64,000 bases of DNA from Escherichia coli (lineage in GTDB: Bacteria > Pseudomonadota > Gammaproteobacteria > Enterobacterales > Enterobacteriaceae). A program made the position numbers and the translations under genes. The stretch lies in the NCBI RefSeq assembly GCF_013122565.1, contig NZ_CP053258.1; one strand, 5' to 3'. Numbering within the stretch: the stretch's first letter is position 1; each line of letters starts with the position of its first letter. Below the pieces are notes generated by a model. That model saw nothing but the letters and a program-made list of their open reading frames with translations, was not told the DNA's origin and ran no database searches. This document shows positions 7,303 to 50,153 of this stretch, piece by piece.

Positions 7303-8790
7303 TTAAATCACCTCTTCGATAACCCACACGCTAACGCTGCCGCCGTTGCAAAAGAAGGTCGCTTCGCCGTTTTCGTCGGTTACTACACTCTCTTGCCGGT
7401 TCCCAAGAAAATCACGCCAGGTTTTATTGCCGTAATTCTCTCCTAAATGAATGGTTTTTTCGCCATCATCTCCGTTCGACATGACCACCACGCAGCCGGG
7501 ATATTCGTCGGTGCCACTGCGGCTAAAGGCAATGCAGTTCGGATGGTCGAAAAATAACGTCTGTACACCGTGGGCGAAACGCTGACGGGCGAGAATTAAC
7601 TCATCAAGTTGTTCGATTATTGGCATATCTATCGGATAGGTTTGCCCGTCACCGCCGACATCTTCGTAATGTGCACCGTAGAGATCCGGATAGAACACCG
7701 AAGGAACGCCATTTTCCCGCAACAAAATTAAGGCATATGCCAGCGGTTTAAACCACGGTTCGACCGGCGCTTCGAGGGCTTGCAACGGTTGGGTGTCGTG
7801 GTTGGCAACGAGCGTCACGGCGTGGAAAGGATCGGCTTCCACTAATGTACCCGTGAAAATCTGCGTCATGTCGTAGTCGCGCCCCATGCGCGATGCTTCA
7901 TGGAATTTCATCTGCAGCGGTGCATCGAACAGCATGGTTTTGCCTTCCACCTGATCAATATACGTTTGCAGTTTATCGACTTCATGCGACCAGTACTCTG
8001 CCACAATAAACAGCGGCTTTGGCGCAACTTCCTGTACGTGTTCGATCCACTCTTTATAAAACCACGCCGGTATATGTTTGACCGCATCAAGACGAAAACC
8101 GTCGCATTGTGTTTGTTCCATCACCCAGCGCGCCCAGTATTTAATCTCTTCCGTCACGGCATGATTGCGGAAATCGATATTCTCACCCATCAGATAATCG
8201 AAATTACCGAGTTCATCATCAACCTGATCGTTCCAGCCTTCGCCGGTGTAGTCGTTAACAATTTTAAATATGCCATCTTCATCAGGATTTTCGATATGGT
8301 CGATACCGCTAAAACATTTGAAATCCCAGATAAACTGCGAGTATTGCCCGGCACGAGCGGGGAAGGTGTAACGCGTCCAGCCTTCGCACTCAATGATTTC
8401 TTCGTCAATTTGCGTACGGTCATCAGCATTTACACGCTGCACGCGAATAGCTTCTTTTTCATCCGCGCCCATTTTGTGGTTGACTACCACATCCAACAGC
8501 ACCGCAATGTCATTACGTTTCAGAGCGTCAATGGCGGCCAGCAGTTGTGCTTTATCGCCATATTTAGTAGGGATGCTGCCTTTCTGATCAAACTCGCCTA
8601 AATCAAATAAATCATAGGAGTCGTAGCCGACCGAATACCCGCCCGATGCGCCTTTATAGGCGGGCGGCAACCAGACCATATTGATACCAATATCATTAAA
8701 ACCGTCGGCGCGCTCGGCCAGTTCAGGCCAGAGCTTACCGCCTTCCGGGTAATACCAGTGAAAACATTGTAACAGCGTGGGATTACGCAT
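7303..8790 (-). CDS. amyA: Cytoplasmic alpha-amylase AmyA
   Basis: ORF 7303..8790, 495 aa, [21 protein letters not shown]...; GH13 motifs (e.g. GFRLDAVKH) visible; length matches AmyA. Confidence 0.95.
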
Positions 8791-8867
8791 TCTTCGACTC
8801 CATTCAAGGGGAACATTAGAAGCGTAGCCGTAATCAGATTATTCGCGAGCCATTAGCTCGTTAAGAT

Positions 8868-9233
8868 TCACGAGAAGTTATCTTGCGGAGCCAGCACAAA
8901 GCCGCCCTGATCGCCATAGGCACTTAACACCGATTTTTGCACCGATGACTGACCGACCAGTTTCGCCAGTTCATTCATCCGAATCTGTAATAACTGCTTT
9001 ACCTTGCTTTCGTTATCGAGAATCAGGCGCAGCATCGGGCGGAGCTGCTCCTGCATCGTGGTGGACGGGTCAATCTCATCAGTCAGATGTGCAATCTCCT
9101 GCACCGCATTCACATACGCCATTTCGCTGGCGATGAGTTCGTCCCATTGTTCTTCCGTTGCCAGGCGTAACATGAGCTGGCTTTTTTCGACGAGTTGTTG
9201 CCAGGCGAAATACAAATGCGGTGCGTGGTTCAT
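8868..9233 (-). CDS. fliT: Flagellar chaperone / anti-FlhDC factor FliT
   Basis: ORF 8868..9233, 121 aa; last gene of the fliD-fliS-fliT operon; matches FliT. Confidence 0.9.
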
Positions 9234-9643
9234 CAGACTGGGTCCTGAATCAAAGAAGGGGAGAGTAACGACTCTTTCCAGGCATCGGCAATATTGCGCA
9301 TTAATGCTTCCACTTCTTCGACTGCGGAGACATCGTTGCGTAAATTGGCTTGCAGCAAACGCCTGACCATATAGCTATAAAGAGCAATCAAGTTTTGGGT
9401 TAATTCGTCTTTGCTCTCTTCATCAAGACTCACCCGAAGTCCGTTCTCAATGATGTTGATCGCTTTTGACAAAGAGACGCCTTTGCCTTGCTGATTGTTG
9501 TCCTGCATAAACAGGCGCGCTCTAACCAGTGCGCTCAGCACTCCATCAAATAGCATGGTGACCAGCTGCTGCTGGCTGGCGCTCATTACGGCGCTTTCGA
9601 CGCCAATTTGTGCATAGGCCTGGGTGCCTTTTGCCGCGTACAT
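9233..9643 (-). CDS. fliS: Flagellin-specific chaperone FliS
   Basis: ORF 9233..9643, 136 aa, [34 protein letters not shown]...; matches FliS. Confidence 0.92.
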
Positions 9644-9658
9644 AGTTTCTCCTGAAGA

Positions 9659-11074
9659 TTATTTCGAGTTGCTATTTGAGGTGTCGAACTGCTGTGTCAG
9701 ATAGCTACTGGTGGAGTTAAGCGAGTTCATTAACACATCTAATTGGGTGAACTGGGCTTTATAGCGCGTCATTAAGGTATCGATACGCTCACTGGCTGCG
9801 TTGTACTGGTCGGTCAAATTATTAAGCGTTTTGCTGACGCCATCTTTTGCGGCCTGGATTATCCCGGTGGAAGAGAGCCAACTGGTCAGGTTGCTACTAA
9901 TGCCGGTGGTTACCCCTGTACTTTTACCGTCACCTATAAACATTTCACCGATGCCAGCGGCATCTTTTTTTAGCGCCGTTTGCAGTTTGTCAGTCGCGAT
10001 TTCCAGCTTGCCGGTACTGGCATCGCTGGTAATGCCAATCTGTGCCAGCGTTTTATAGTTTGAACTGCTGTGAGTATTGGCGAGCAAGGTTTTAAGCTGA
10101 GTCTGGATGGTACGCAGTGTGGAGTCACCGAGTAATGCGCCATTACTGGAGTCCTGACTTTCTGCTCCGGCATCGACAGCGGTGTATTTGGTTAAGCTAC
10201 TGAATGTATCCTGCAATGTGTTATAGGCATCCACCCATGCTTTGACCGCATTTTCAGCTTTGGATGTGTCTTTATTGATGGTCAGTGTCTGATTACCGGT
10301 GGTGACGTCATTCAGGTTGAGTGTGATATCTTCCAGCGCGTCGCTGATAGTGTTACTGCTGTTTTCAATCTCAACGTTATTGACTGTCAGTTTGGCGTTT
10401 TGCGCGGTGACGCTTTCAATCATGCCATTGCTGCTATCACCCGACGTTCCGTTGTAACCCATAAAACTTTCCAGGGCGCTGTCGCCGCTGACGCTAAGTT
10501 TCATAGCGTTATCGTTGCCCGTATCGTTAGCGGTGATGGACAGACGATATTCGCCGTTTCTCACATTGATGATACTGGCGCTGACACCAGCTTTGGCGTT
10601 GTTAATGGCATCGCGAATGCCGGAAAGTGACGAGTTAGCTGCGCTGATATCAATCGTGACCGGATCTTTACCGCCGCCTTGCTGGATGGTCAGTACGCTA
10701 TCGCTGGTGGCGATGGCAGCTTTACTGTCTTTTTGACTAATTTTTGTGGTCAGCGTTTGTGCCTGCGCCAGTTGGCTAACGCTAATGGTGTATTTCCCGG
10801 CAATCGCGCTGCCCGTGGTGGTGGCGCTGAAAGCCGATGAACTGCTGGTGGTTGAAGTGGCGGTAAATAAATCGGCTTTATTCAGTGCTGTGTTGGCTGT
10901 CTGGAAACTCTCTAGTGCACTTTTCAGCGTCCCGTAGGCGCTCAGTTTCGCGGTGTAAGAGCTTTGCTGTTTTGATATCGGCGTCAGGGTAGATTTTTCT
11001 GCCGCCTCCAGACTGTCAAGGATGCTGCTTAAATCCAGCCCCGACCCAACCCCAAGCGTTGAAATACTAGCCAT
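9659..11074 (-). CDS. fliD: Flagellar filament cap protein FliD (variant allele, 471 aa)
   Basis: ORF 9659..11074, MASISTLGVGSGLDLSSILDS...; conserved termini, divergent in the middle relative to K-12 FliD (468 aa by recollection). Confidence 0.9.
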   Translation of the reverse strand: MASISTLGVGSGLDLSSILDSLEAAEKSTLTPISKQQSSYTAKLSAYGTLKSALESFQTANTALNKADLFTATSTTSSSSAFSATTTGSAIAGKYTISVSQLAQAQTLTTKISQKDSKAAIATSDSVLTIQQGGGKDPVTIDISAANSSLSGIRDAINNAKAGVSASIINVRNGEYRLSITANDTGNDNAMKLSVSGDSALESFMGYNGTSGDSSNGMIESVTAQNAKLTVNNVEIENSSNTISDALEDITLNLNDVTTGNQTLTINKDTSKAENAVKAWVDAYNTLQDTFSSLTKYTAVDAGAESQDSSNGALLGDSTLRTIQTQLKTLLANTHSSSNYKTLAQIGITSDASTGKLEIATDKLQTALKKDAAGIGEMFIGDGKSTGVTTGISSNLTSWLSSTGIIQAAKDGVSKTLNNLTDQYNAASERIDTLMTRYKAQFTQLDVLMNSLNSTSSYLTQQFDTSNSNSK

Positions 11075-11116
11075 ATAAATTCCTTAATCATGCGACGTAT
11101 AGAACGAATACCGGGG

Positions 11117-11143
11117 TTATCGGCGTAAGCGGGGCAAAGTTTA
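11117..11143 (-). promoter_or_regulatory. sigma-28 (FliA) class 3 promoter for fliDST
   Basis: + strand reads ttatcggc-N11-aaagttta, i.e. on the minus strand TAAACTTT-N11-GCCGATAA, a near-perfect match to the sigma-28 consensus TAAAGTTT-N11-GCCGATAA. Confidence 0.7.
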
Positions 11144-11216
11144 CGATTTATTTTTTGGCTTAATGACACGAACAGCAACGAGGAAGGGGAGTATTTCGAC
11201 CGCTAGAAAAAAATTC

Positions 11217-11243
11217 TAAAGGTTGTGAGTGACCAGACGATAA
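11217..11243 (+). promoter_or_regulatory. sigma-28 (FliA) class 3 promoter for fliC
   Basis: taaaggtt-N11-gacgataa upstream of fliC; close to the sigma-28 consensus. Confidence 0.65.
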
Positions 11244-11319
11244 CAGGGTTGACGGCGACGAAGCCGAAGGGTGGAAGCCCAATACTTAAACCGTAGACTT
11301 GAAAACAGGAAAATGAATC

Positions 11320-12663
11320 ATGGCACAAGTCATTAATACCAACAGCCTCTCGCTGATCACTCAGAACAACATCAACAAAAACCAGTCTGCGCTGTCGACT
11401 TCTATCGAGCGCCTCTCTTCTGGTCTGCGCATTAACAGCGCTAAAGATGACGCTGCGGGCCAGGCGATTGCTAACCGCTTCACTTCTAACATCAAAGGTC
11501 TGACTCAGGCCGCACGTAACGCCAACGACGGTATCTCTCTGGCGCAGACCACTGAAGGCGCACTGTCTGAAATCAACAACAACTTGCAGCGTGTTCGTGA
11601 ACTGACCGTTCAGGCCACTACCGGTACTAACTCTGATTCTGACCTGTCTTCAATCCAGGACGAAATCAAATCCCGTCTCGATGAAATTGACCGCGTATCC
11701 GGTCAGACTCAGTTCAACGGCGTGAACGTACTGGCAAAAGATGGCTCGATGAAAATTCAGGTCGGTGCAAATGATGGTCAGACAATCAGCATTGATTTGC
11801 AGAAGATTGATTCTTCTACTTTAGGGTTAAATGGTTTTTCTGTTTCCAAAAATGCAGTATCTGTTGGTGATGCTATTACTCAATTGCCTGGCGAGACGGC
11901 AGCCGATGCACCAGTAACCATCAAGTTTGATGATTCAGTAAAAACTGATTTAAAACTGACCGATGCTTCAGGGTTAAGTCTGCATAACCTCAAAGATGAA
12001 AATGGTAATTTAACTAACCAGTATGTTGTACAGAATGGCGGAAAATCTTACGCTGCTACAGTCGCTGCCAATGGTAATGTTACGCTGAACAAAGCAAATG
12101 TAACCTACAGCGATGTCGCAAACGGTATTGATACCGCAACGCAGTCAGGCCAGTTAGTTCAGGTTGGTGCAGATTCTACCGGTACGCCAAAAGCATTCGT
12201 GTCTGTCCAAGGTAAAAGCTTTGGCATTGATGACGCCGCCTTGAAGAATAACACTGGTGATGCTACCGCTACTCCACCGGGAGCATCTGGGACAACAGTT
12301 GTCGCAGCGTCAATTCATCTGAGTACGGGCAAAAACTCTGTAGACGCTGATGTAACGGCTTCCACTGAATTCACAGGTGCTTCAACCAACGATCCACTGA
12401 CTCTGCTGGACAAAGCTATCGCATCTGTTGATAAATTCCGTTCTTCTTTGGGGGCGGTACAGAACCGTCTGAGCTCCGCTGTAACCAACCTGAACAACAC
12501 CACCACCAACCTGTCTGAAGCGCAGTCCCGTATTCAGGACGCCGACTATGCGACCGAAGTGTCCAACATGTCGAAAGCGCAGATTATCCAGCAGGCAGGT
12601 AACTCCGTGCTGTCCAAAGCTAACCAGGTACCGCAGCAGGTTCTGTCTCTGCTGCAGGGTTAA
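11320..12663 (+). CDS. fliC: Flagellin FliC (H-antigen), 447 aa, non-K-12 serotype
   Basis: ORF 11320..12663; conserved N-terminal (MAQVINTNSLSLITQNNINKNQSALSTSIERLSSGLRINSAKDDAAGQAIANRF...) and C-terminal (...QNRLSSAVTNLNNTTTNLSEAQSRIQDADYATEVSNMSKAQIIQQAGNSVLSKANQVPQQVLSLLQG) flagellin domains flank a distinct central region; K-12 FliC is 498 aa by recollection. Confidence 0.92.
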   Translation: MAQVINTNSLSLITQNNINKNQSALSTSIERLSSGLRINSAKDDAAGQAIANRFTSNIKGLTQAARNANDGISLAQTTEGALSEINNNLQRVRELTVQATTGTNSDSDLSSIQDEIKSRLDEIDRVSGQTQFNGVNVLAKDGSMKIQVGANDGQTISIDLQKIDSSTLGLNGFSVSKNAVSVGDAITQLPGETAADAPVTIKFDDSVKTDLKLTDASGLSLHNLKDENGNLTNQYVVQNGGKSYAATVAANGNVTLNKANVTYSDVANGIDTATQSGQLVQVGADSTGTPKAFVSVQGKSFGIDDAALKNNTGDATATPPGASGTTVVAASIHLSTGKNSVDADVTASTEFTGASTNDPLTLLDKAIASVDKFRSSLGAVQNRLSSAVTNLNNTTTNLSEAQSRIQDADYATEVSNMSKAQIIQQAGNSVLSKANQVPQQVLSLLQG

Positions 12664-12706
12664 TCGTCGTAACCTGATTAACTGAGACTGACGGCAACGC
12701 CAAATT

Positions 12707-12806
<100 letters not shown>

Positions 12807-12835
12807 ACATCAAGCGCAATTTGTCAGCAACGTGC

Positions 12836-12861
12836 TCCCCCGCCACCGGCGGGGTTTTTTC
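12836..12861 (+). terminator. Rho-independent terminator downstream of fliC
   Basis: GC-rich hairpin ccccgccaccggcgggg followed by a T run. Confidence 0.7.
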
Positions 12862-12930
12862 TGTCCGCAATTTACCGGTAACCCCCAAATAACCCCTCAT
12901 TTCACCCACTAATCGTCCGATTAAAAACCC

Positions 12931-12957
12931 TGCAGAAACGGATAATCATGCCGATAA
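12931..12957 (+). promoter_or_regulatory. Putative fliA promoter element (sigma-28 -10-like GCCGATAA at 12950..12957)
   Basis: Exact GCCGATAA 26 nt upstream of the fliA GTG; the -35 match is poor, so the assignment is tentative. Confidence 0.35.
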
Positions 12958-12982
12958 CTCATATAACGCAGGGCTGTTTATC

Positions 12983-13702
12983 GTGAATTCACTCTATACC
13001 GCTGAAGGTGTAATGGATAAACACTCGCTGTGGCAGCGTTATGTCCCGCTGGTGCGTCACGAAGCATTGCGCCTGCAGGTTCGACTGCCCGCGAGCGTGG
13101 AACTTGACGATCTGCTACAGGCGGGCGGCATTGGGTTACTTAATGCCGTCGAACGCTATGACGCCCTACAAGGAACGGCATTTACAACTTACGCAGTGCA
13201 GCGTATCCGTGGCGCTATGTTGGATGAACTTCGCAGCCGTGACTGGGTGCCGCGCAGCGTGCGACGCAACGCGCGTGAAGTGGCACAGGCAATAGGGCAA
13301 CTGGAGCAGGAACTTGGCCGCAACGCCACGGAAACTGAGGTAGCGGAACGTTTAGGGATCGATATTGCCGATTATCGCCAAATGTTGCTCGACACCAATA
13401 ACAGCCAGCTCTTCTCCTACGATGAGTGGCGCGAAGAGCACGGCGATAGCATCGAACTGGTTACTGATGATCATCAGCGAGAAAACCCGCTACAACAACT
13501 GCTGGACAGTAATCTGCGTCAGCGGGTGATGGAAGCCATCGAAACGTTGCCGGAGCGCGAAAAACTGGTATTAACCCTCTATTACCAGGAAGAGCTGAAT
13601 CTCAAAGAGATTGGCGCGGTGCTGGAGGTCGGGGAATCGCGGGTCAGTCAGTTACACAGCCAGGCTATTAAACGGTTACGCACTAAACTGGGTAAGTTAT
13701 AA
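12983..13702 (+). CDS. fliA: Flagellar sigma factor sigma-28 (FliA)
   Basis: ORF 12983..13702 (GTG start), 239 aa, ...NSLYTAEGVMDKHSLWQRYVPLVRHEALRL...; full-length match to FliA. Confidence 0.95.
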   Translation: MNSLYTAEGVMDKHSLWQRYVPLVRHEALRLQVRLPASVELDDLLQAGGIGLLNAVERYDALQGTAFTTYAVQRIRGAMLDELRSRDWVPRSVRRNAREVAQAIGQLEQELGRNATETEVAERLGIDIADYRQMLLDTNNSQLFSYDEWREEHGDSIELVTDDHQRENPLQQLLDSNLRQRVMEAIETLPEREKLVLTLYYQEELNLKEIGAVLEVGESRVSQLHSQAIKRLRTKLGKL

Positions 13703-13747
13703 CGTCAGTAAATGCCGCACTTTAACTTTGACTACCAGGAGTTCTTA

Positions 13748-14299
13748 ATGATGGTGCAGCACCTGAAAAGACGGCCATTAAGCCGCTATCTTAAAGACTT
13801 TAAACACAGCCAGACCCATTGCGCGCATTGCCGTAAATTACTCGATCGCATTACCTTAGTTCGCGACGGCAAAATAGTGAATAAAATCGAGATTTCCCGC
13901 CTGGACACGCTGCTTGATGAAAATGGCTGGCAAACGGAACAAAAATCATGGGCGGCATTGTGCCGATTTTGCGGTGATTTACATTGCAAAACGCAGAGTG
14001 ATTTTTTCGATATTATCGGCTTTAAGCAATTTCTTTTTGAGCAAACTGAAATGAGCCCTGGTACGGTGCGTGAATATGTCGTTCGTCTGCGCCGTTTGGG
14101 GAATCATCTACATGAGCAAAATATTTCCCTCGATCAGCTGCAGGACGGTTTCCTTGATGAAATCCTCGCCCCGTGGCTGCCCACCACCAGCACCAACAAT
14201 TACCGCATCGCATTACGGAAGTATCAACACTATCAGCGTCAAACGTGTACCGGACTTGTGCAGAAATCCTCCAGCCTGCCTGCTTCTGATATATATTAA
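13748..14299 (+). CDS. fliZ: Flagellar regulatory protein FliZ
   Basis: ORF 13712..14299 trimmed to MMVQHLKRRPLSRYLKDF... at 13748, 183 aa. Confidence 0.9.
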   Translation: MMVQHLKRRPLSRYLKDFKHSQTHCAHCRKLLDRITLVRDGKIVNKIEISRLDTLLDENGWQTEQKSWAALCRFCGDLHCKTQSDFFDIIGFKQFLFEQTEMSPGTVREYVVRLRRLGNHLHEQNISLDQLQDGFLDEILAPWLPTTSTNNYRIALRKYQHYQRQTCTGLVQKSSSLPASDIY

Positions 14300-14386
14300 A
14301 TAAGAATAAGATGTAGCGGAGTTGTTTTTGTGTTTACAAACAATGGCTCTACACTGCAAACAGACATAACAACATTCGGGGTGAAT

Positions 14387-16278
<1,892 letters not shown>

Positions 16279-35016: not shown

Positions 35017-35518
35017 AACCTGTTCCTTATTCTGTGAACTTCAGGTGACATTAAAGCTTTACTCCTAATGGAGAAACGACGCAATCCCAACTCAGTCAAA
35101 CAGGTAAATATTAGTCTGATTATTAGTAAAGACAATTAAACAATTGCTTCCGGTGATCATATGATTTCAAATGTAATTATAAGAAAATAGTGTACTGATT
35201 CTCCGCATTAAACAAGTGGTTAATATATGTAAAACATTTTATTAACATTAAGTTGATTGTTGCCTTTCTTTGTATTTAATCAGTTTGTTGTGCGGTAAGT
35301 GTCTGTTTAAAAATAGCTTATCTGGTATTGCATGAAAGTGATTATTTATAGCAGATGATTATTTACGGTGAGTTATTTTAACTGTGCGCAACATCCCATT
35401 TCGATTATTCCTGTTTCATTTTTGCTTGCTAGCGTTGCGAAAAACTTTTTAACAGATTGAAATACACCCAAAACAAAAGTATGACTTATACATTTATGTT
35501 AATTAATTGAGTGTTTTG

Positions 35519-41243: not shown

Positions 41244-41270
41244 TAAAGTTTCCCCCCTTCTTGCCGATAA
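41244..41270 (+). promoter_or_regulatory. sigma-28 class 3 promoter of the tar-tap-cheRBYZ operon
   Basis: taaagttt-N11-gccgataa: exact match to both halves of the sigma-28 consensus with 11-nt spacer, ~30 nt upstream of tar. Confidence 0.78.
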
Positions 41271-47600: not shown

Positions 47601-47618
47601 TTTGTATTGCCTGAACTT

Positions 47619-47643
47619 CGGCCTGCGCGATGATGCCAGGCCG
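47619..47643. terminator. Hairpin between convergent cheZ and the inserted nucleotidyltransferase gene
   Basis: Inverted repeat cggcctg...caggccg 19 nt after the cheZ stop; no strong T-run, so weak. Confidence 0.35.
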
Positions 47644-47687
47644 ATAGCAGGGTGGCGAGTATCGTTCAGGGAGTACGTGGAGGATGG

Positions 47688-48440
47688 TTATTTGTAGTTT
47701 GATAATTTTAGATCAGCGAAGCGTGTTTGTTGCGCCAGTAAATTTATCAACGCATTAAATTGTGAACGAGAAAATGACGATGACTGGTAGTGCAGTACAT
47801 CGTAATGATGCCAAACTTCATAACGTTTTTTCGTCAGTTCATGGTGCAAGAAATGACAGAGTTCCGGACCTAAACTCTTTACCTGCTTAGTAAAAATAGT
47901 GCGTAAAATCTTCGTTACCGAACCGCTTGGATTGGGGTTAGTATGAAGAACAAGTTCAAGATGTCTGCGATTTAAGTCGGTCAAATAATTATCTTTACTG
48001 ATAATTTTTTCACTACGTAGATCATAGAGCACGGCATCCCAACTCATTAGCGTAGTGTTTAACAGACTTGATTCATCCTCACAAAATATAAGTTTTTCCC
48101 GAAATGCCCATGTCTCATTGAGGTTCCAGATATCAAATTCGAAGTCGTGATAACGAAAACGGATCCCACCGAACTTATTAAAACGCAGTTGTTTAACGGG
48201 CAATTCAGCCAATGTCCGGAAGAGTTCCTCACGGGAGCGACCGATGACGATATCAAGGTCTGAAGAAAATCCTTCGACGCCAAACAAGCCTAAGTCACGC
48301 ACCATCCCGCCAAAAATCCAGGCCGGACAGGAACAGGCCAGAGTATCAAGTAATACTCTGGCTTTCTTATGCTCATCACTAAGCGTAAAAAAATCGGCGA
48401 TACGCTGTTCAAGCTGTTGGGTGTTTGAGACCACATTCAT
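47688..48440 (-). CDS. Pol-beta-superfamily nucleotidyltransferase (CCA/MNT/SMODS-like fold), function unknown; downstream gene of inserted operon
   Basis: ORF 47688..48440, 250 aa; nucleotidyltransferase signature ...AWIFGGMVRDLGLFGVEGFSSDLDIVIG... (hG[GS]-x9-13-DhDh) with a third acidic residue in ...HDFEFDIWNL...; start overlaps upstream gene by 32 nt; no equivalent gene between cheZ and flhB in K-12 as I recall; AT-rich. Confidence 0.7.
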   Translation of the reverse strand: MNVVSNTQQLEQRIADFFTLSDEHKKARVLLDTLACSCPAWIFGGMVRDLGLFGVEGFSSDLDIVIGRSREELFRTLAELPVKQLRFNKFGGIRFRYHDFEFDIWNLNETWAFREKLIFCEDESSLLNTTLMSWDAVLYDLRSEKIISKDNYLTDLNRRHLELVLHTNPNPSGSVTKILRTIFTKQVKSLGPELCHFLHHELTKKRYEVWHHYDVLHYQSSSFSRSQFNALINLLAQQTRFADLKLSNYK

Positions 48441-49917
48441 ACAGTGATTTTAGCTCATCGTGAAGGCGCATTAAATAACTATCCGTCATGCCTGAGATTG
48501 CGTCGGTAAGCAACTGCGCTTCTTTATAAAGAATAGGGAGTGTATTGGCGGGATCTTCAAACACACGGCGATAATTTTCAGAGATTGTCCCGTAAGCATA
48601 GCGACCAAAGGGAGTATCCGATAGGTATTCTTCACGAGAAACAAAAAGGTTATCTGCAGACGCGGACTCGCGTTCTCCGTCTCGTTCTTTCTTTGTTTTG
48701 TGTCCATGGATGCCAATCCAGAGCATATCCATCAAGTTAGTAATGTAATTAGACCCCCTAAGTTCCAGTTGCAAGACTGAACGATGAAGGTAGCCTCGTG
48801 TTCGGTCGAACATTTTCAGGGCAGTGCAGAGAGCGTGACCTTTGCTTTGCGAGATTAAATCTTTGAACGGGCAGTCACGCTGCATCAGCGTGGGTAATTG
48901 TTCGCGAAAGGCTTCAACTACGGCATTAATCAATGCACTGGTGGCATACACTCTGAACATTTGCATACTGAGTTCATTAATTTCTGCCGGTGAAAGTGCA
49001 TTTCTTTGCTCTTTCCAGGCGTCATTTTTGGCCTCTACAGCTTTAATAACATTTTCAATTACATCGTTCGACTCGGATTGTGACATCAAAAAATCACGCA
49101 AATCCTGGTATGAGGCAAATCCTTTCTTGATGGTATCTTCTGCGTCAAGCACAGAGTAGGCAATATCGTCGCAAGCTTCCATTATCCAGGTAAATGGGTG
49201 GCGGCAACCGGCATCATTACCTGGTACGCCAAGGCCCGTTTGCTGCCAGACATCCATGACAACCTCATGCTCAGAATAGAAAAAACCGTGTTTTTTCCAA
49301 TGTTTGTCCGATGAATATGAAGCTCGGGGATATTTGATCAGTGCAGCCAGCGTGGCATAGGTCAGATTCAGACCAAAGTTATCGTTAATAATTTGTAATT
49401 TGGTAACCAGGCGCAGGGTTTGTGAGTTTCCATCAAATTGCAGAAAGTCGTTATATATTTCGCTGTTTACTTCTTTATCAAGAAGGCCTGGAAGATTTTT
49501 ATTAAACCATGCGCGCATCGCTGCTTCACCTTGATGCCCAAATGGTGGATTACCGAGATCGTGTGCCAGTCCGATCGCTGCTAACAGAGCAGGAACGTCG
49601 CGTTCAACGACAATCCCCGTGGGTATTTCGCCAAAGATGTGTTCCTTCATCTCGAAAGCGAGCCTCATTCCTATTCCGCGAGCAAAGTTTGCTACTTCGT
49701 GAGAATGAGTCAGCCTCGTCCGTATACTGTCATTTTGATCTAACGGGAAAACTTGTGTTTTATCCGCCAGCCGACGAGTTGGCGCAGCAAAAAGTAATCG
49801 GTCGTAATCCCGCTCGATCTCTTGTCTTCCGCGAGCAAGGGGATGTAAAAATTCTATGCTGGTTTTTTTTAGATTATCTTTTCGACGGTTGCAGTTAAGC
49901 AATTGTTGCCATTCCAT
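48409..49917 (-). CDS. Dgt-family dNTP (dGTP) triphosphohydrolase paralogue (HD domain); upstream gene of inserted operon
   Basis: ORF 48409..49917, 502 aa; Dgt hallmark motifs: DKTQVFPLDQNDSIRTRLTHSHEV (HD histidine), GLAHDLGNPPFGHQGE (HD aspartate), FDGNSQTLRLV, HPFTWIMEACDDIAYSVLDAEDTIKKG, LTDAISGMTDSYL; RBS aagg 7-8 nt before ATG; AT-rich. Confidence 0.82.
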   Translation of the reverse strand: MEWQQLLNCNRRKDNLKKTSIEFLHPLARGRQEIERDYDRLLFAAPTRRLADKTQVFPLDQNDSIRTRLTHSHEVANFARGIGMRLAFEMKEHIFGEIPTGIVVERDVPALLAAIGLAHDLGNPPFGHQGEAAMRAWFNKNLPGLLDKEVNSEIYNDFLQFDGNSQTLRLVTKLQIINDNFGLNLTYATLAALIKYPRASYSSDKHWKKHGFFYSEHEVVMDVWQQTGLGVPGNDAGCRHPFTWIMEACDDIAYSVLDAEDTIKKGFASYQDLRDFLMSQSESNDVIENVIKAVEAKNDAWKEQRNALSPAEINELSMQMFRVYATSALINAVVEAFREQLPTLMQRDCPFKDLISQSKGHALCTALKMFDRTRGYLHRSVLQLELRGSNYITNLMDMLWIGIHGHKTKKERDGERESASADNLFVSREEYLSDTPFGRYAYGTISENYRRVFEDPANTLPILYKEAQLLTDAISGMTDSYLMRLHDELKSLYECGLKHPTA

Positions 49918-50153
49918 TTGATCGCCTTTGTAATAATTTAATTATTAGCAAACTAACAGAGAGACGGTGGGCGATTCTATAGGCTAAATGGCTAAATATC
50001 AGAACTGGAAAATGGTTCGCAAAACGTTCTGCAACTGAACCTATTTTTTGCATAAACGTCCTAAATCCCGCCTGTTTTGCCCCTTACTCAAACCATTGAA
50101 CGCTTTGCGCTCTGGCATCATTTACGCTTAATACTCTTTCCAGGATTGGCGAC

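What the first reader, a model, noticed from the sequence alone, without database searches (positions are those of the whole stretch)
9659..11074. FliD cap protein is also a divergent allele (471 aa)
The central portion of FliD shows many substitutions relative to the K-12 protein as recalled (468 aa), consistent with co-variation of the cap with the flagellin variable domain across the divergent fliD-fliC locus.
Basis: partly seen in the sequence, partly recalled or inferred. Interest (0 to 1): 0.2.

Follow-up and report, generated by a model that had tools for sequence, protein, structure and literature searches.

The report
Common second-type E. coli flagellar cap
The flagellar cap gene fliD in this window really is very different from the K-12 gene, but it is an ordinary, already catalogued version carried by about a quarter of E. 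coli strains, one of three old fliD-fliC cassettes that circulate in the species.

Summary
ORF 9659-11074 (minus strand, 471 aa) is an intact FliD. It is 80% identical in protein and 73% in DNA to K-12 FliD (468 aa).

Two details need correcting:
- The substitutions run along the whole protein. The central D2-D3 head is 82% identical; the C-terminal D1/D0 part is 77%.
- The cap does not track the flagellin variable domain. Strains with at least four other, unrelated fliC centres carry fliD 97.4-99.7% identical to this one.

Complete E. coli genomes hold three discrete fliD classes:
- A (this window): about 24%.
- B (K-12, O157:H7, UTI89): about 59%.
- C: about 16%, only 50% identical in protein to A.

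The divergent block starts at the base next to the fliS start codon and ends inside the 3' end of fliC. Synonymous sites in fliD are saturated and dN/dS is about 0.07, so this is old divergence under purifying selection.

Each class is closer to caps of other genera than to the other E. coli classes. Class A groups with Pseudocitrobacter, B with Kluyvera, and C with Citrobacter/Salmonella.

The exact protein is already in NCBI (WP_171459258.1). A similar pattern is published for Salmonella. Verdict: real, ordinary, low interest.

The parts
9659..11074 (-). fliD, flagellar filament cap (HAP2), 471 aa, class A allele
   Evidence: ORF. Pfam FliD_N and FliD_C. 80% aa identity to K-12 FliD. Best solved structure is E. 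coli FliD 5h5v. The exact protein is WP_171459258.1.
9644..9658 (-). fliD-fliS spacer; left edge of the divergent block. The dense mismatches against K-12 begin at 9644, the base next to the fliS ATG at 9643.
   Evidence: Mismatch list. fliS itself has 4 mismatches in 411 nt.
11075..11319 (.). fliD-fliC intergenic region with divergent promoters. It is 56-75% identical to K-12 except for conserved promoter islands.
11117..11143 (-). Sigma-28 (FliA) promoter of fliD; exact consensus TAAA-N15-GCCGATAA
   Evidence: Two exact matches in the 64-kb window against 0.03 expected by chance. Its -35 and -10 elements lie in invariant columns across classes A, B and C; the spacer varies.
11217..11243 (+). 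Sigma-28-type promoter of fliC (TAAA-N15-GACGATAA), same elements as in K-12
11320..12663 (+). fliC flagellin, 447 aa, H8 type by proxy. Its 5' end is of the class A kind; its centre is unrelated to K-12 H48.
   Evidence: Pfam Flagellin_N and Flagellin_C. 99.8% identical to fliC of HeN100, which was typed O99:H8 by SerotypeFinder in PMC6920969.
12484..12566 (+). Interval holding the right edge of the divergent block, inside the conserved 3' end of fliC
   Evidence: Dense mismatches against K-12 stop between 12483/12504 and 12567. Identity is 94-100% beyond that.
8868..9643 (-). fliS (9233-9643) and fliT (8868-9233), export chaperones of FliC and FliD. They lie outside the divergent block.
   Evidence: Pfam FliS and FliT. 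dS against K-12 is 0.03 and 0.08. The same FliT protein, WP_001015023.1, is annotated beside class A, B and C fliD.

Best explanation
The ORF is a functional FliD filament cap. It belongs to one of three old, discrete fliD lineages that coexist in E. coli at the same chromosomal site; I call them A, B and C here.

Shown:
- The divergent unit is a cassette made of all of fliD, the divergent promoter region and most of fliC.
- Its edges lie at the fliS start codon and in the conserved 3' end of fliC.
- The divergence is old and conservative.
- Class A is closer to the caps of another genus than to K-12's cap.

Inferred:
- The cassette entered or was retained in E. coli lineages by homologous recombination in the conserved flanks. 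fliD rode along because it is physically joined to fliC, the gene whose antigenic diversity is thought to be selected.
- Inside a class, new flagellin variable regions are swapped by recombination within the conserved ends of fliC. This leaves fliD untouched.
- The cap works as in K-12 and Salmonella. It is transcribed from FlhDC-dependent and sigma-28 promoters (the FlhDC dependence is taken from K-12/Salmonella work and was not tested here) and exported with the FliT chaperone bound to its C-terminal helix. It then assembles as an oligomeric cap at the filament tip and positions each incoming flagellin through its D1 surface.
For: Identity and context:
- establish the ORF as FliD in the canonical locus.

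Block limits:
- Against K-12, identity is 95-100% in the flanks, 63-79% across all of fliD, 56-75% in the spacer, 87-93% in the fliC 5' end and 20-50% in the fliC centre. It is back above 94% by about 12520.
- The left edge is at 9644, next to the fliS ATG.

Age and selection:
- fliD has pS 0.71 (saturated, dS about 2.2), dN 0.148 and dN/dS about 0.07.
- fliS, fliT, amyA and fliA have dS 0.02-0.11.

Three classes:
- Among 5426 complete genomes, 1323 have fliD 95% or more identical to the window, 3189 are near 73%, and none lies between 80% and 95%.
- About 860 more genomes have fliS-fliT but neither class of fliD.
- Four of four sampled from that group carry a 470-aa fliD that is 50-51% identical in protein to A and B.
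- In 17 loci, fliD is 97-100% identical within a class, 73-74% between A and B, and 54-56% against C.

Non-sister lineages:
- NJ tree: A with Pseudocitrobacter/FGI57 at 100% bootstrap; B (with Shigella and E. albertii) within Kluyvera at 94%; C within the Citrobacter/Salmonella group, whose basal node has 100% support.
- Class A is closer to Pseudocitrobacter than to B in 7 of 7 sequence windows. Nearest relatives are listed.

Inheritance as a unit:
- No genome of 5426 joins class A fliD to a class B spacer, or the reverse, at high identity.

Function conserved:
- fliD has an exact sigma-28 promoter, and both promoters are conserved islands in all three classes.
- The FliD and FliC contact residues defined in Salmonella (FliD Y296, A298, L313, K361; FliC I72, E94; PMC12855180) are all conserved in class A.
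- The C-terminal FliT-binding region matches PDB 5gna, 6ch2 and 5krw.

Precedent:
- In Salmonella, the fliB, fliC and fliD trees are largely congruent with one another and incongruent with the core genome, while fliA and fliS follow the core (PMC5744181).
Against: - No donor is identified. The nearest non-Escherichia cap is only 89% identical, so direction and timing of any transfer are unknown.
- Class A also occurs in 'Escherichia sp. E4208' at 97%. That fits a long-standing polymorphism within the genus as well as an import.
- Class A fliD has ordinary composition (GC 49.5%, against 50.3% for the window), so there is no compositional mark of foreign origin.
- The tree is a distance tree on 31 proteins, and several deep nodes are weak (22-52%).
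- Function is inferred from homology; no motility data exist for this strain.
- Linkage between fliD class and fliC 5' class rests on 17 loci plus matching population counts, not on a per-genome table.
Confidence: 0.8

Rival explanations
1. Co-adapted module. The cap and the flagellin core have co-evolved within each class, so a class A cap works poorly with class B or C flagellin. On this view, selection against mismatched pairs keeps fliD and the fliC 5' end together, rather than mere adjacency doing so.
For: - fliD class and fliC 5'-end class agree in 17 of 17 loci, and the population counts agree within 1%.
- No genome joins class A fliD to a class B spacer, or the reverse.
- From memory, not checked here: Pseudomonas aeruginosa has A-type and B-type FliD co-inherited with a-type and b-type flagellin (Arora et al. 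2000).
Against: - The experimentally defined FliD-FliC contact residues are identical in classes A and B (FliD Y, A, L, K; FliC I72, E94).
- FliC residues 61-100 differ at one position between A and B.
- FliC N-terminal and C-terminal core regions are 94% identical between A and B.
- The two genes are adjacent with a 245-bp spacer, so tight linkage is expected without any selection.
- The 3' end of fliC does not separate A from B at all.
Confidence: 0.15
2. Rapid diversifying selection on an exposed tip antigen. On this view FliD diverged quickly within E. coli under immune or phage pressure, in step with the flagellin variable domain. This is.
For: - FliD is surface-exposed at the filament tip (established knowledge).
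- The locus holds the hypervariable H antigen.
- The D2-D3 head carries 36 of the 92 substitutions.
Against: - dN/dS is about 0.07 with saturated synonymous sites, which points to old divergence under purifying selection.
- Buried D0 and D1 parts are at least as diverged as the exposed head.
- No intermediates exist between 80% and 95% DNA identity in 5426 genomes.
- Within class A, fliD stays 97-100% identical across five unrelated flagellin centres.
- Class A is closer to Pseudocitrobacter caps than to class B.
Confidence: 0.03
3. Artefact or paralogue. The ORF could be an assembly chimera, a decaying gene, or the cap of a second (lateral, Flag-2) flagellar system rather than the main fliD.
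For: None found. It was considered only because some relatives are defective: fliD has an internal stop in ET201, and fliD-fliS is replaced by ISEc52 in D9.
Against: - The reading frame is intact with complete domains.
- It occupies the canonical site between fliC and fliS.
- Genomes carry one copy (median 1 place).
- The same allele at 95% or more is found in 1323 complete genomes.
- The exact protein is in RefSeq.
Confidence: 0.01

Closest known systems
E. coli K-12 FliD (b1924; crystal structure 5H5V)
   Same: Same gene, same locus, same length class (468 against 471 aa), same Pfam domains and same sigma-28 promoter elements. The FliC-contact residues and the C-terminal FliT-binding core are conserved.
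   Different: 80% aa and 73% nt identity, with 92 substitutions and 3 gap positions spread over the whole protein. Synonymous sites are saturated. The two belong to different branches of the enterobacterial FliD tree.
FliD of ST131 O25b:H4 and other class A E. coli (cluster of 2142 deposited sequences; exact match WP_171459258.1)
   Same: 97.4-99.7% nt identity, 471 aa, same 15-nt fliD-fliS spacer and same block limits.
   Different: Only a few substitutions. The neighbouring flagellin differs: H4 (349 aa) and at least three other types, against H8 (447 aa) here.
Salmonella enterica fliB-fliC-fliD module (Liu et al. 2017, PMC5744181)
   Same: In Salmonella the fliB, fliC and fliD trees are largely congruent with one another, split into two lineages and disagree with the core genome, while fliA and fliS follow the core. 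The boundaries match those seen here.
   Different: E. coli has no fliB and shows three classes rather than two. The Salmonella split was linked to monophasic versus biphasic serovars, which has no counterpart here.
Pseudomonas aeruginosa A-type and B-type FliD (Arora et al. 2000, recalled from memory; PDB 5fhy is named 'B-type')
   Same: Discrete cap types within one species, co-inherited with flagellin type.
   Different: This is a different family branch: 5fhy matches at only E=6.5e-29. The Pseudomonas types were characterised for antigenicity and mucin adhesion; nothing comparable is known for the E. coli classes. I could not retrieve the paper.
FliD of Pseudocitrobacter spp. and Enterobacteriaceae bacterium FGI 57
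   Same: Nearest non-Escherichia relatives: 89% aa identity and sister to class A with 100% bootstrap.
   Different: 11% aa divergence, so they are not a recent donor. The genomic context in those genera was not examined.

Membership tests
FliD / HAP2 flagellar filament cap | N-terminal FliD_N domain (PF02465) | tested here: met
   E=1.5e-23, residues 11-106, full profile 1-97 of 97.
FliD / HAP2 flagellar filament cap | C-terminal FliD_C domain (PF07195) | tested here: met
   E=8.3e-65, residues 224-454, full profile 1-236 of 236.
FliD / HAP2 flagellar filament cap | Heads a fliD-fliS-fliT operon, divergent from fliC, with a sigma-28 promoter | tested here: met
   Gene order. Exact TAAA-N15-GCCGATAA at 11117-11143 on the minus strand.
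FliD / HAP2 flagellar filament cap | Sequence homology to solved cap structures over D1-D2-D3 and both termini | tested here: met
   5h5v (E. coli) E=1.5e-172 over residues 41-418. Full-length Salmonella caps 9m6i and 9gnz at about E=1e-131 over residues 1-467.
FliD / HAP2 flagellar filament cap | Flagellin-docking residues on D1 (Salmonella Y296, A298, L313, K361) | tested here: met
   Window Y297, A299, L315 and K363. FliC I72 and E94 are present. This is an alignment-level test only.
FliD / HAP2 flagellar filament cap | C-terminal helix bound by the FliT chaperone | tested here: met
   PDB FliD-FliT entries 5gna, 6ch2 and 5krw match residues 404-468 or 430-468. fliT lies downstream. Binding itself was not tested.
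FliD / HAP2 flagellar filament cap | Forms an oligomeric cap and is required for filament polymerisation | not testable with these tools
   Needs genetics or microscopy.
K-12-type FliD (class B of this report) | Near identity to K-12 fliD (class B members are 98-99% identical in nt to each other) | tested here: not met
   73.5% nt and 80% aa identity.
Class A fliD of E. coli (this report's label) | At least 97% nt identity to other members, 471 aa, 15-nt spacer to fliS | tested here: met
   1323 genomes at 95% or more. Eight loci at 97-100%. Annotation tables.
Recombining fliC-fliD module bounded by fliA and fliS (as described for Salmonella) | fliD and fliC diverged far beyond the genome background while fliS and fliA follow the background | tested here: met
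   dS about 2.2 for fliD against 0.03 for fliS and 0.02 for fliA. Sharp edges.
Cap type co-inherited with flagellin type (Pseudomonas A/B model) | Cap class strictly associated with flagellin class | tested here: inconclusive
   Holds for the fliC 5' conserved end (17 of 17 loci; counts). It does not hold for the variable domain or for the fliC 3' end between classes A and B.
Cap type co-inherited with flagellin type (Pseudomonas A/B model) | Types antigenically or functionally distinct | not testable with these tools
   Needs sera or cross-complementation.

The most novel reading that the evidence does not exclude
The three fliD classes, together with the promoter region and the fliC 5' end, behave as co-adapted 'supergene' modules. 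H-antigen exchange in E. coli would then be confined within classes, and the three cassettes would be kept apart by selection rather than by adjacency alone. This would add a structural constraint to H-antigen evolution that serotyping schemes ignore.
Probability: 0.12. Interest if true: 0.45.

Novelty: already known. Interest (0 to 1): 0.15.

Why it matters
For this window it matters little. The gene is a normal, intact filament cap. The exact protein is already in RefSeq, and about a quarter of sequenced E. coli, including the pandemic ST131 O25b:H4 clone, carry the same class.

The wider picture may be useful to people who type or engineer flagella:
- E. coli fliD falls into three discrete classes, 73% (A vs B) and about 55% (either vs C) identical in DNA.
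- Their edges lie at the fliS start codon and inside the 3' end of fliC.
- Each class is nearer to caps of other genera than to the other E. coli classes.
- K-12 FliD, the structural and genetic reference, represents only about 59% of strains.
- PCR or BLAST probes built on K-12 fliD will miss the remaining 40%. A megablast with this fliD found only 24% of genomes.
- FliD-based antigens or vaccines would need all three classes.

I found no paper in the searchable library that describes this three-class structure for E. coli. It is the same kind of pattern already published for Salmonella.

Tried and rejected
1. Wang et al. 2003 (PMC154406), on E. coli H-antigen groups, is not held in the library. 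The group names therefore come only from Hu and Reeves 2020, which never mentions fliD.
2. Searches for the Pseudomonas A-type/B-type FliD paper found nothing usable. That comparison rests on memory.
3. Chimeric junction queries (class A fliD plus class B spacer, and the reverse) were meant to count recombinants by coverage. Coverage failed as a criterion, because gapped alignments ran across the junction and through conserved promoter islands. Only the ranking by coverage times identity could be used, and it shows no true chimera.
4. Rfam found no RNA family in 8000-14500 at gathering thresholds. This includes the region matching K-12's FliX sRNA, so its conservation rests on 94-99% DNA identity to K-12 only.
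5. Composition gave no sign of foreign origin for class A.
6. The H type could not be read from genome titles. It was assigned as H8 by proxy through HeN100.
7. I did not run structure prediction, fold search or the large metagenome and genome scans. A solved structure at 80% identity and three protein-database searches already answered the questions they would address.
8. Rejected readings: rapid positive selection, paralogue or artefact, and cap tracking the H-antigen variable domain (see rival explanations).

Full report
**1. What is there**

The window holds an ATG-to-stop ORF of 471 aa at 9659..11074 on the minus strand. It has complete Pfam FliD_N (E=1.5e-23) and FliD_C (E=8.3e-65) domains.

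Gene order matches the K-12 fli region in reverse:
- amyA (7303-8790, minus)
- fliT (8868-9233, minus)
- fliS (9233-9643, minus)
- fliD
- a 245-bp spacer
- fliC (11320-12663, plus, 447 aa)
- fliA (12983-13702)
- fliZ, tcyJ, dcyD

The best solved structure is E. coli FliD 5h5v (E=1.5e-172, residues 41-418). Full-length Salmonella caps match residues 1-467. The ORF is the main filament cap gene and it is intact.

**2. The observation**

K-12 FliD is 468 aa. BLASTP gives 376/471 identities (80%), 90% positives and 3 gap positions. DNA identity is 73.5%.

The statement that the central portion carries the substitutions is only partly right. Identity by region:
- residues 1-40: 85%
- residues 41-69: 90%
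- residues 70-269 (D2-D3 head, limits from the 5h5w fragment): 82%
- residues 270-418: 77%
- residues 419-471: 77%

The whole protein is diverged, the C-terminal third slightly more.

**3. Extent and age of the divergence**

A global alignment with K-12 gives these DNA identities:

| Region | Identity to K-12 |
|---|---|
| Flanks | 95-100% |
| All of fliD | 63-79% |
| Spacer | 56-75% |
| fliC 5' end | 87-93% |
| fliC centre | 20-50% |
| From about 12520 onward | above 94% |

The left edge is exact. fliS has 4 mismatches in 411 nt, and the dense mismatches begin at 9644, the base next to the fliS ATG. The right edge lies between 12484 and 12566, inside the conserved 3' end of fliC.

Nei-Gojobori estimates for fliD are pS 0.71 (saturated, dS about 2.2), dN 0.148 and dN/dS about 0.07. 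For fliS, fliT, amyA and fliA, dS is 0.02-0.11. The divergence is therefore old and conservative. It is not a burst of adaptive change.

**4. Place in the species**

Against 5426 complete E. coli genomes:
- 1323 have fliD 95% or more identical to this one, 147 of them at 99% or more.
- 3189 are near 73%. These include K-12, O157:H7, UTI89 and E24377A. Nissle 1917 is also this class.
- None lies between 80% and 95%.

A query joining both fliD types to fliS-fliT showed that 5377 genomes have fliS-fliT. About 860 of them have neither fliD type (by subtraction). Four of four sampled from that group carry a third fliD of 470 aa. It is 50-51% identical in protein and 54-56% in DNA to the other two.

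I call the classes A (this window, about 24%), B (K-12, about 59%) and C (about 16%). Class A includes ST131 O25b:H4 and O78:H4. The exact window protein is already deposited as WP_171459258.1 / QJU23869.1, in a cluster of 2142 sequences.

**5. Does the cap follow the flagellin variable domain?**

The window's fliC is 99.8% identical to that of HeN100. That strain was typed O99:H8 with SerotypeFinder (PMC6920969), so the window is H8 by proxy.

Only 29 genomes share this full-length fliC at 99% or more, against 1323 that share the fliD class.

fliD identity to the window:

| Strain | fliC centre | fliD nt identity to window |
|---|---|---|
| HeN100 | H8 | 99.65% |
| ET201 | H8 | 99.58% |
| CUVM53 | about 58% identical to the window's | 99.72% |
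| UTME-7 | about 58% identical to the window's | 99.51% |
| ECCRA-119 | about 58% identical to the window's | 99.08% |
| ST131 | H4 | 97.74% |

One FliD protein, WP_000146824.1, is annotated beside both an H8 and a non-H8 flagellin.

In a 17-locus table:
- fliD is 97-100% identical within a class.
- The first 420 nt of fliC follow the class. Within A the range is 92-100%, between A and B it is 86-91%, and class C against either is 78-81%.
- The last 210 nt of fliC do not separate A from B.
- Class A holds five different fliC centres.

The cap therefore goes with the locus lineage, meaning the promoter region and the fliC 5' core. It does not go with the H-antigen domain.

No genome of 5426 joins class A fliD to a class B spacer, or the reverse, at high identity.

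**6. Origin**

Nearest relatives in the protein database:
- Class A: E. coli and 'Escherichia sp. E4208' (97-98%), then Pseudocitrobacter and strain FGI 57 (89%), then Buttiauxella, Franconibacter, Kluyvera and Enterobacter (79-84%).
- Class B: Shigella (99%), E. albertii (94-95%), then Kluyvera georgiana and K. ascorbata (87%).
- Class C: Citrobacter tructae and C. freundii (86%), Salmonella (75-85%), E. fergusonii (71%).

A neighbour-joining tree with 100 bootstraps places:
- A as sister to Pseudocitrobacter/FGI 57 (100%).
- B inside the Kluyvera group (94%).
- C inside the Citrobacter/Salmonella group, whose basal node has 100% support.

Class A is closer to Pseudocitrobacter than to class B in all seven 60-residue windows, so the placement is not a mosaic effect.

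The three E. coli classes are therefore not sister alleles. Class B, shared with E. albertii at a divergence typical of those species, is plausibly the resident lineage (inference). Classes A and C look like imports or very old polymorphisms.

No donor is identified. Class A has ordinary composition (GC 49.5%).

**7. How it most likely works**

Regulation is conserved:
- fliD has an exact sigma-28 promoter, TAAA-N15-GCCGATAA, at 11117-11143 on the minus strand. There are two such matches in 64 kb against 0.03 expected.
- fliC has TAAA-N15-GACGATAA at 11217-11243, as in K-12.
- The -35 and -10 elements of both promoters are invariant islands across all three classes, inside an otherwise diverged spacer.

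The cap-flagellin interface is conserved. In Salmonella, cryo-EM and NMR work defined the contact as FliD Y296, A298, L313 and K361 with FliC I72 and E94 (PMC12855180). The window has Y297, A299, L315 and K363, and its FliC has I72 and E94, as in K-12.

The C-terminal region matches FliD-FliT complex structures. The same FliT protein, WP_001015023.1, is annotated beside class A, B and C caps.

By homology I infer the standard mechanism. The cap is exported with FliT, assembles as an oligomer at the filament tip and positions each incoming flagellin. Because the known contacts are invariant, I think the classes are probably interchangeable, and fliD diverged simply because it is joined to fliC. 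This last step is inference. The co-adaptation rival gets about 0.15.

**8. Comparison with what is known**

- The closest published pattern is in Salmonella. There the fliB, fliC and fliD trees are largely congruent with one another, split into two lineages and conflict with the core genome, while fliA and fliS follow the core (PMC5744181). The boundaries are the same as here.
- Hu and Reeves 2020 place most E. coli flagellins in two adjacent clusters and argue that the variable regions were acquired from outside. They do not mention fliD.
- Pseudomonas aeruginosa A-type and B-type FliD co-inherited with flagellin type is a further precedent. I cite it from memory only, because the paper could not be retrieved.
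- I found no paper in the searchable library that describes three fliD classes in E. coli. Absence from this library is weak evidence.

**9. Verdict**

The feature is an ordinary, catalogued allele class of a well-understood gene, and its pattern of divergence matches a known kind. Interest is low (0.15).

The most novel reading not excluded is that the three cassettes are co-adapted modules that restrict H-antigen exchange. I put its probability at about 0.12.

Noticed in passing
window 47615-50059: A 2.4-kb insertion relative to K-12 lies between cheZ and flhB. It holds two overlapping minus-strand ORFs. ORF 48409-49917 (502 aa) matches the PADLOC dGTPase defence model (E=5e-71) and Pfam HD/HD_assoc. 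ORF 47688-48440 (250 aa) has no Pfam or PADLOC match. This is a possible dGTPase-type anti-phage islet with an uncharacterised partner inside the flagellar/chemotaxis region.
   Followed up: partly
window ~35491-35498: The IS1H element that sits upstream of flhDC in K-12 MG1655 (1978503-1979270) is absent here. Otherwise window 4946-64000 is colinear with K-12 2010000-1952347 at about 98% identity.
   Followed up: partly
L002, L003, L017, L018 (E. coli HCM-21C-2, CFSAN027346, MSI001, H14): A third E. coli fliD class (470 aa) is only 50% identical in protein to the window and to K-12, and is closest to Citrobacter/Salmonella caps. The two class C flagellins examined (L002, L003) have C-terminal regions only about 70% identical to those of the window and K-12, and the one printed (L002) ends ...VLSLLR. 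The block reaches about 24 nt into fliS, and the fliC-fliA spacer is about 155 bp shorter, which removes the region of K-12's FliX sRNA. GC3 of this fliD is 42.5%.
   Followed up: partly
L005 (ET201), L006 (D9), L007 (HS-01): Several strains with the same H8-type fliC have a broken filament module. fliD has an internal stop in ET201. In D9 an IS3-family ISEc52 replaces fliD, fliS and part of fliT. fliC is frameshifted in HS-01. This suggests recurrent loss of motility in this lineage.
   Followed up: no
window 41244-41270 (+): This is the only other exact sigma-28 consensus (TAAA-N15-GCCGATAA) in the window. By colinearity with K-12 it lies near 1972.7 kb, upstream of tar.
   Followed up: no
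window 12664-12982: The fliC-fliA spacer is 94-99% identical to K-12, where it encodes the FliX sRNA from the fliC 3' UTR. No Rfam family reached its gathering score anywhere in 8000-14500.
   Followed up: partly
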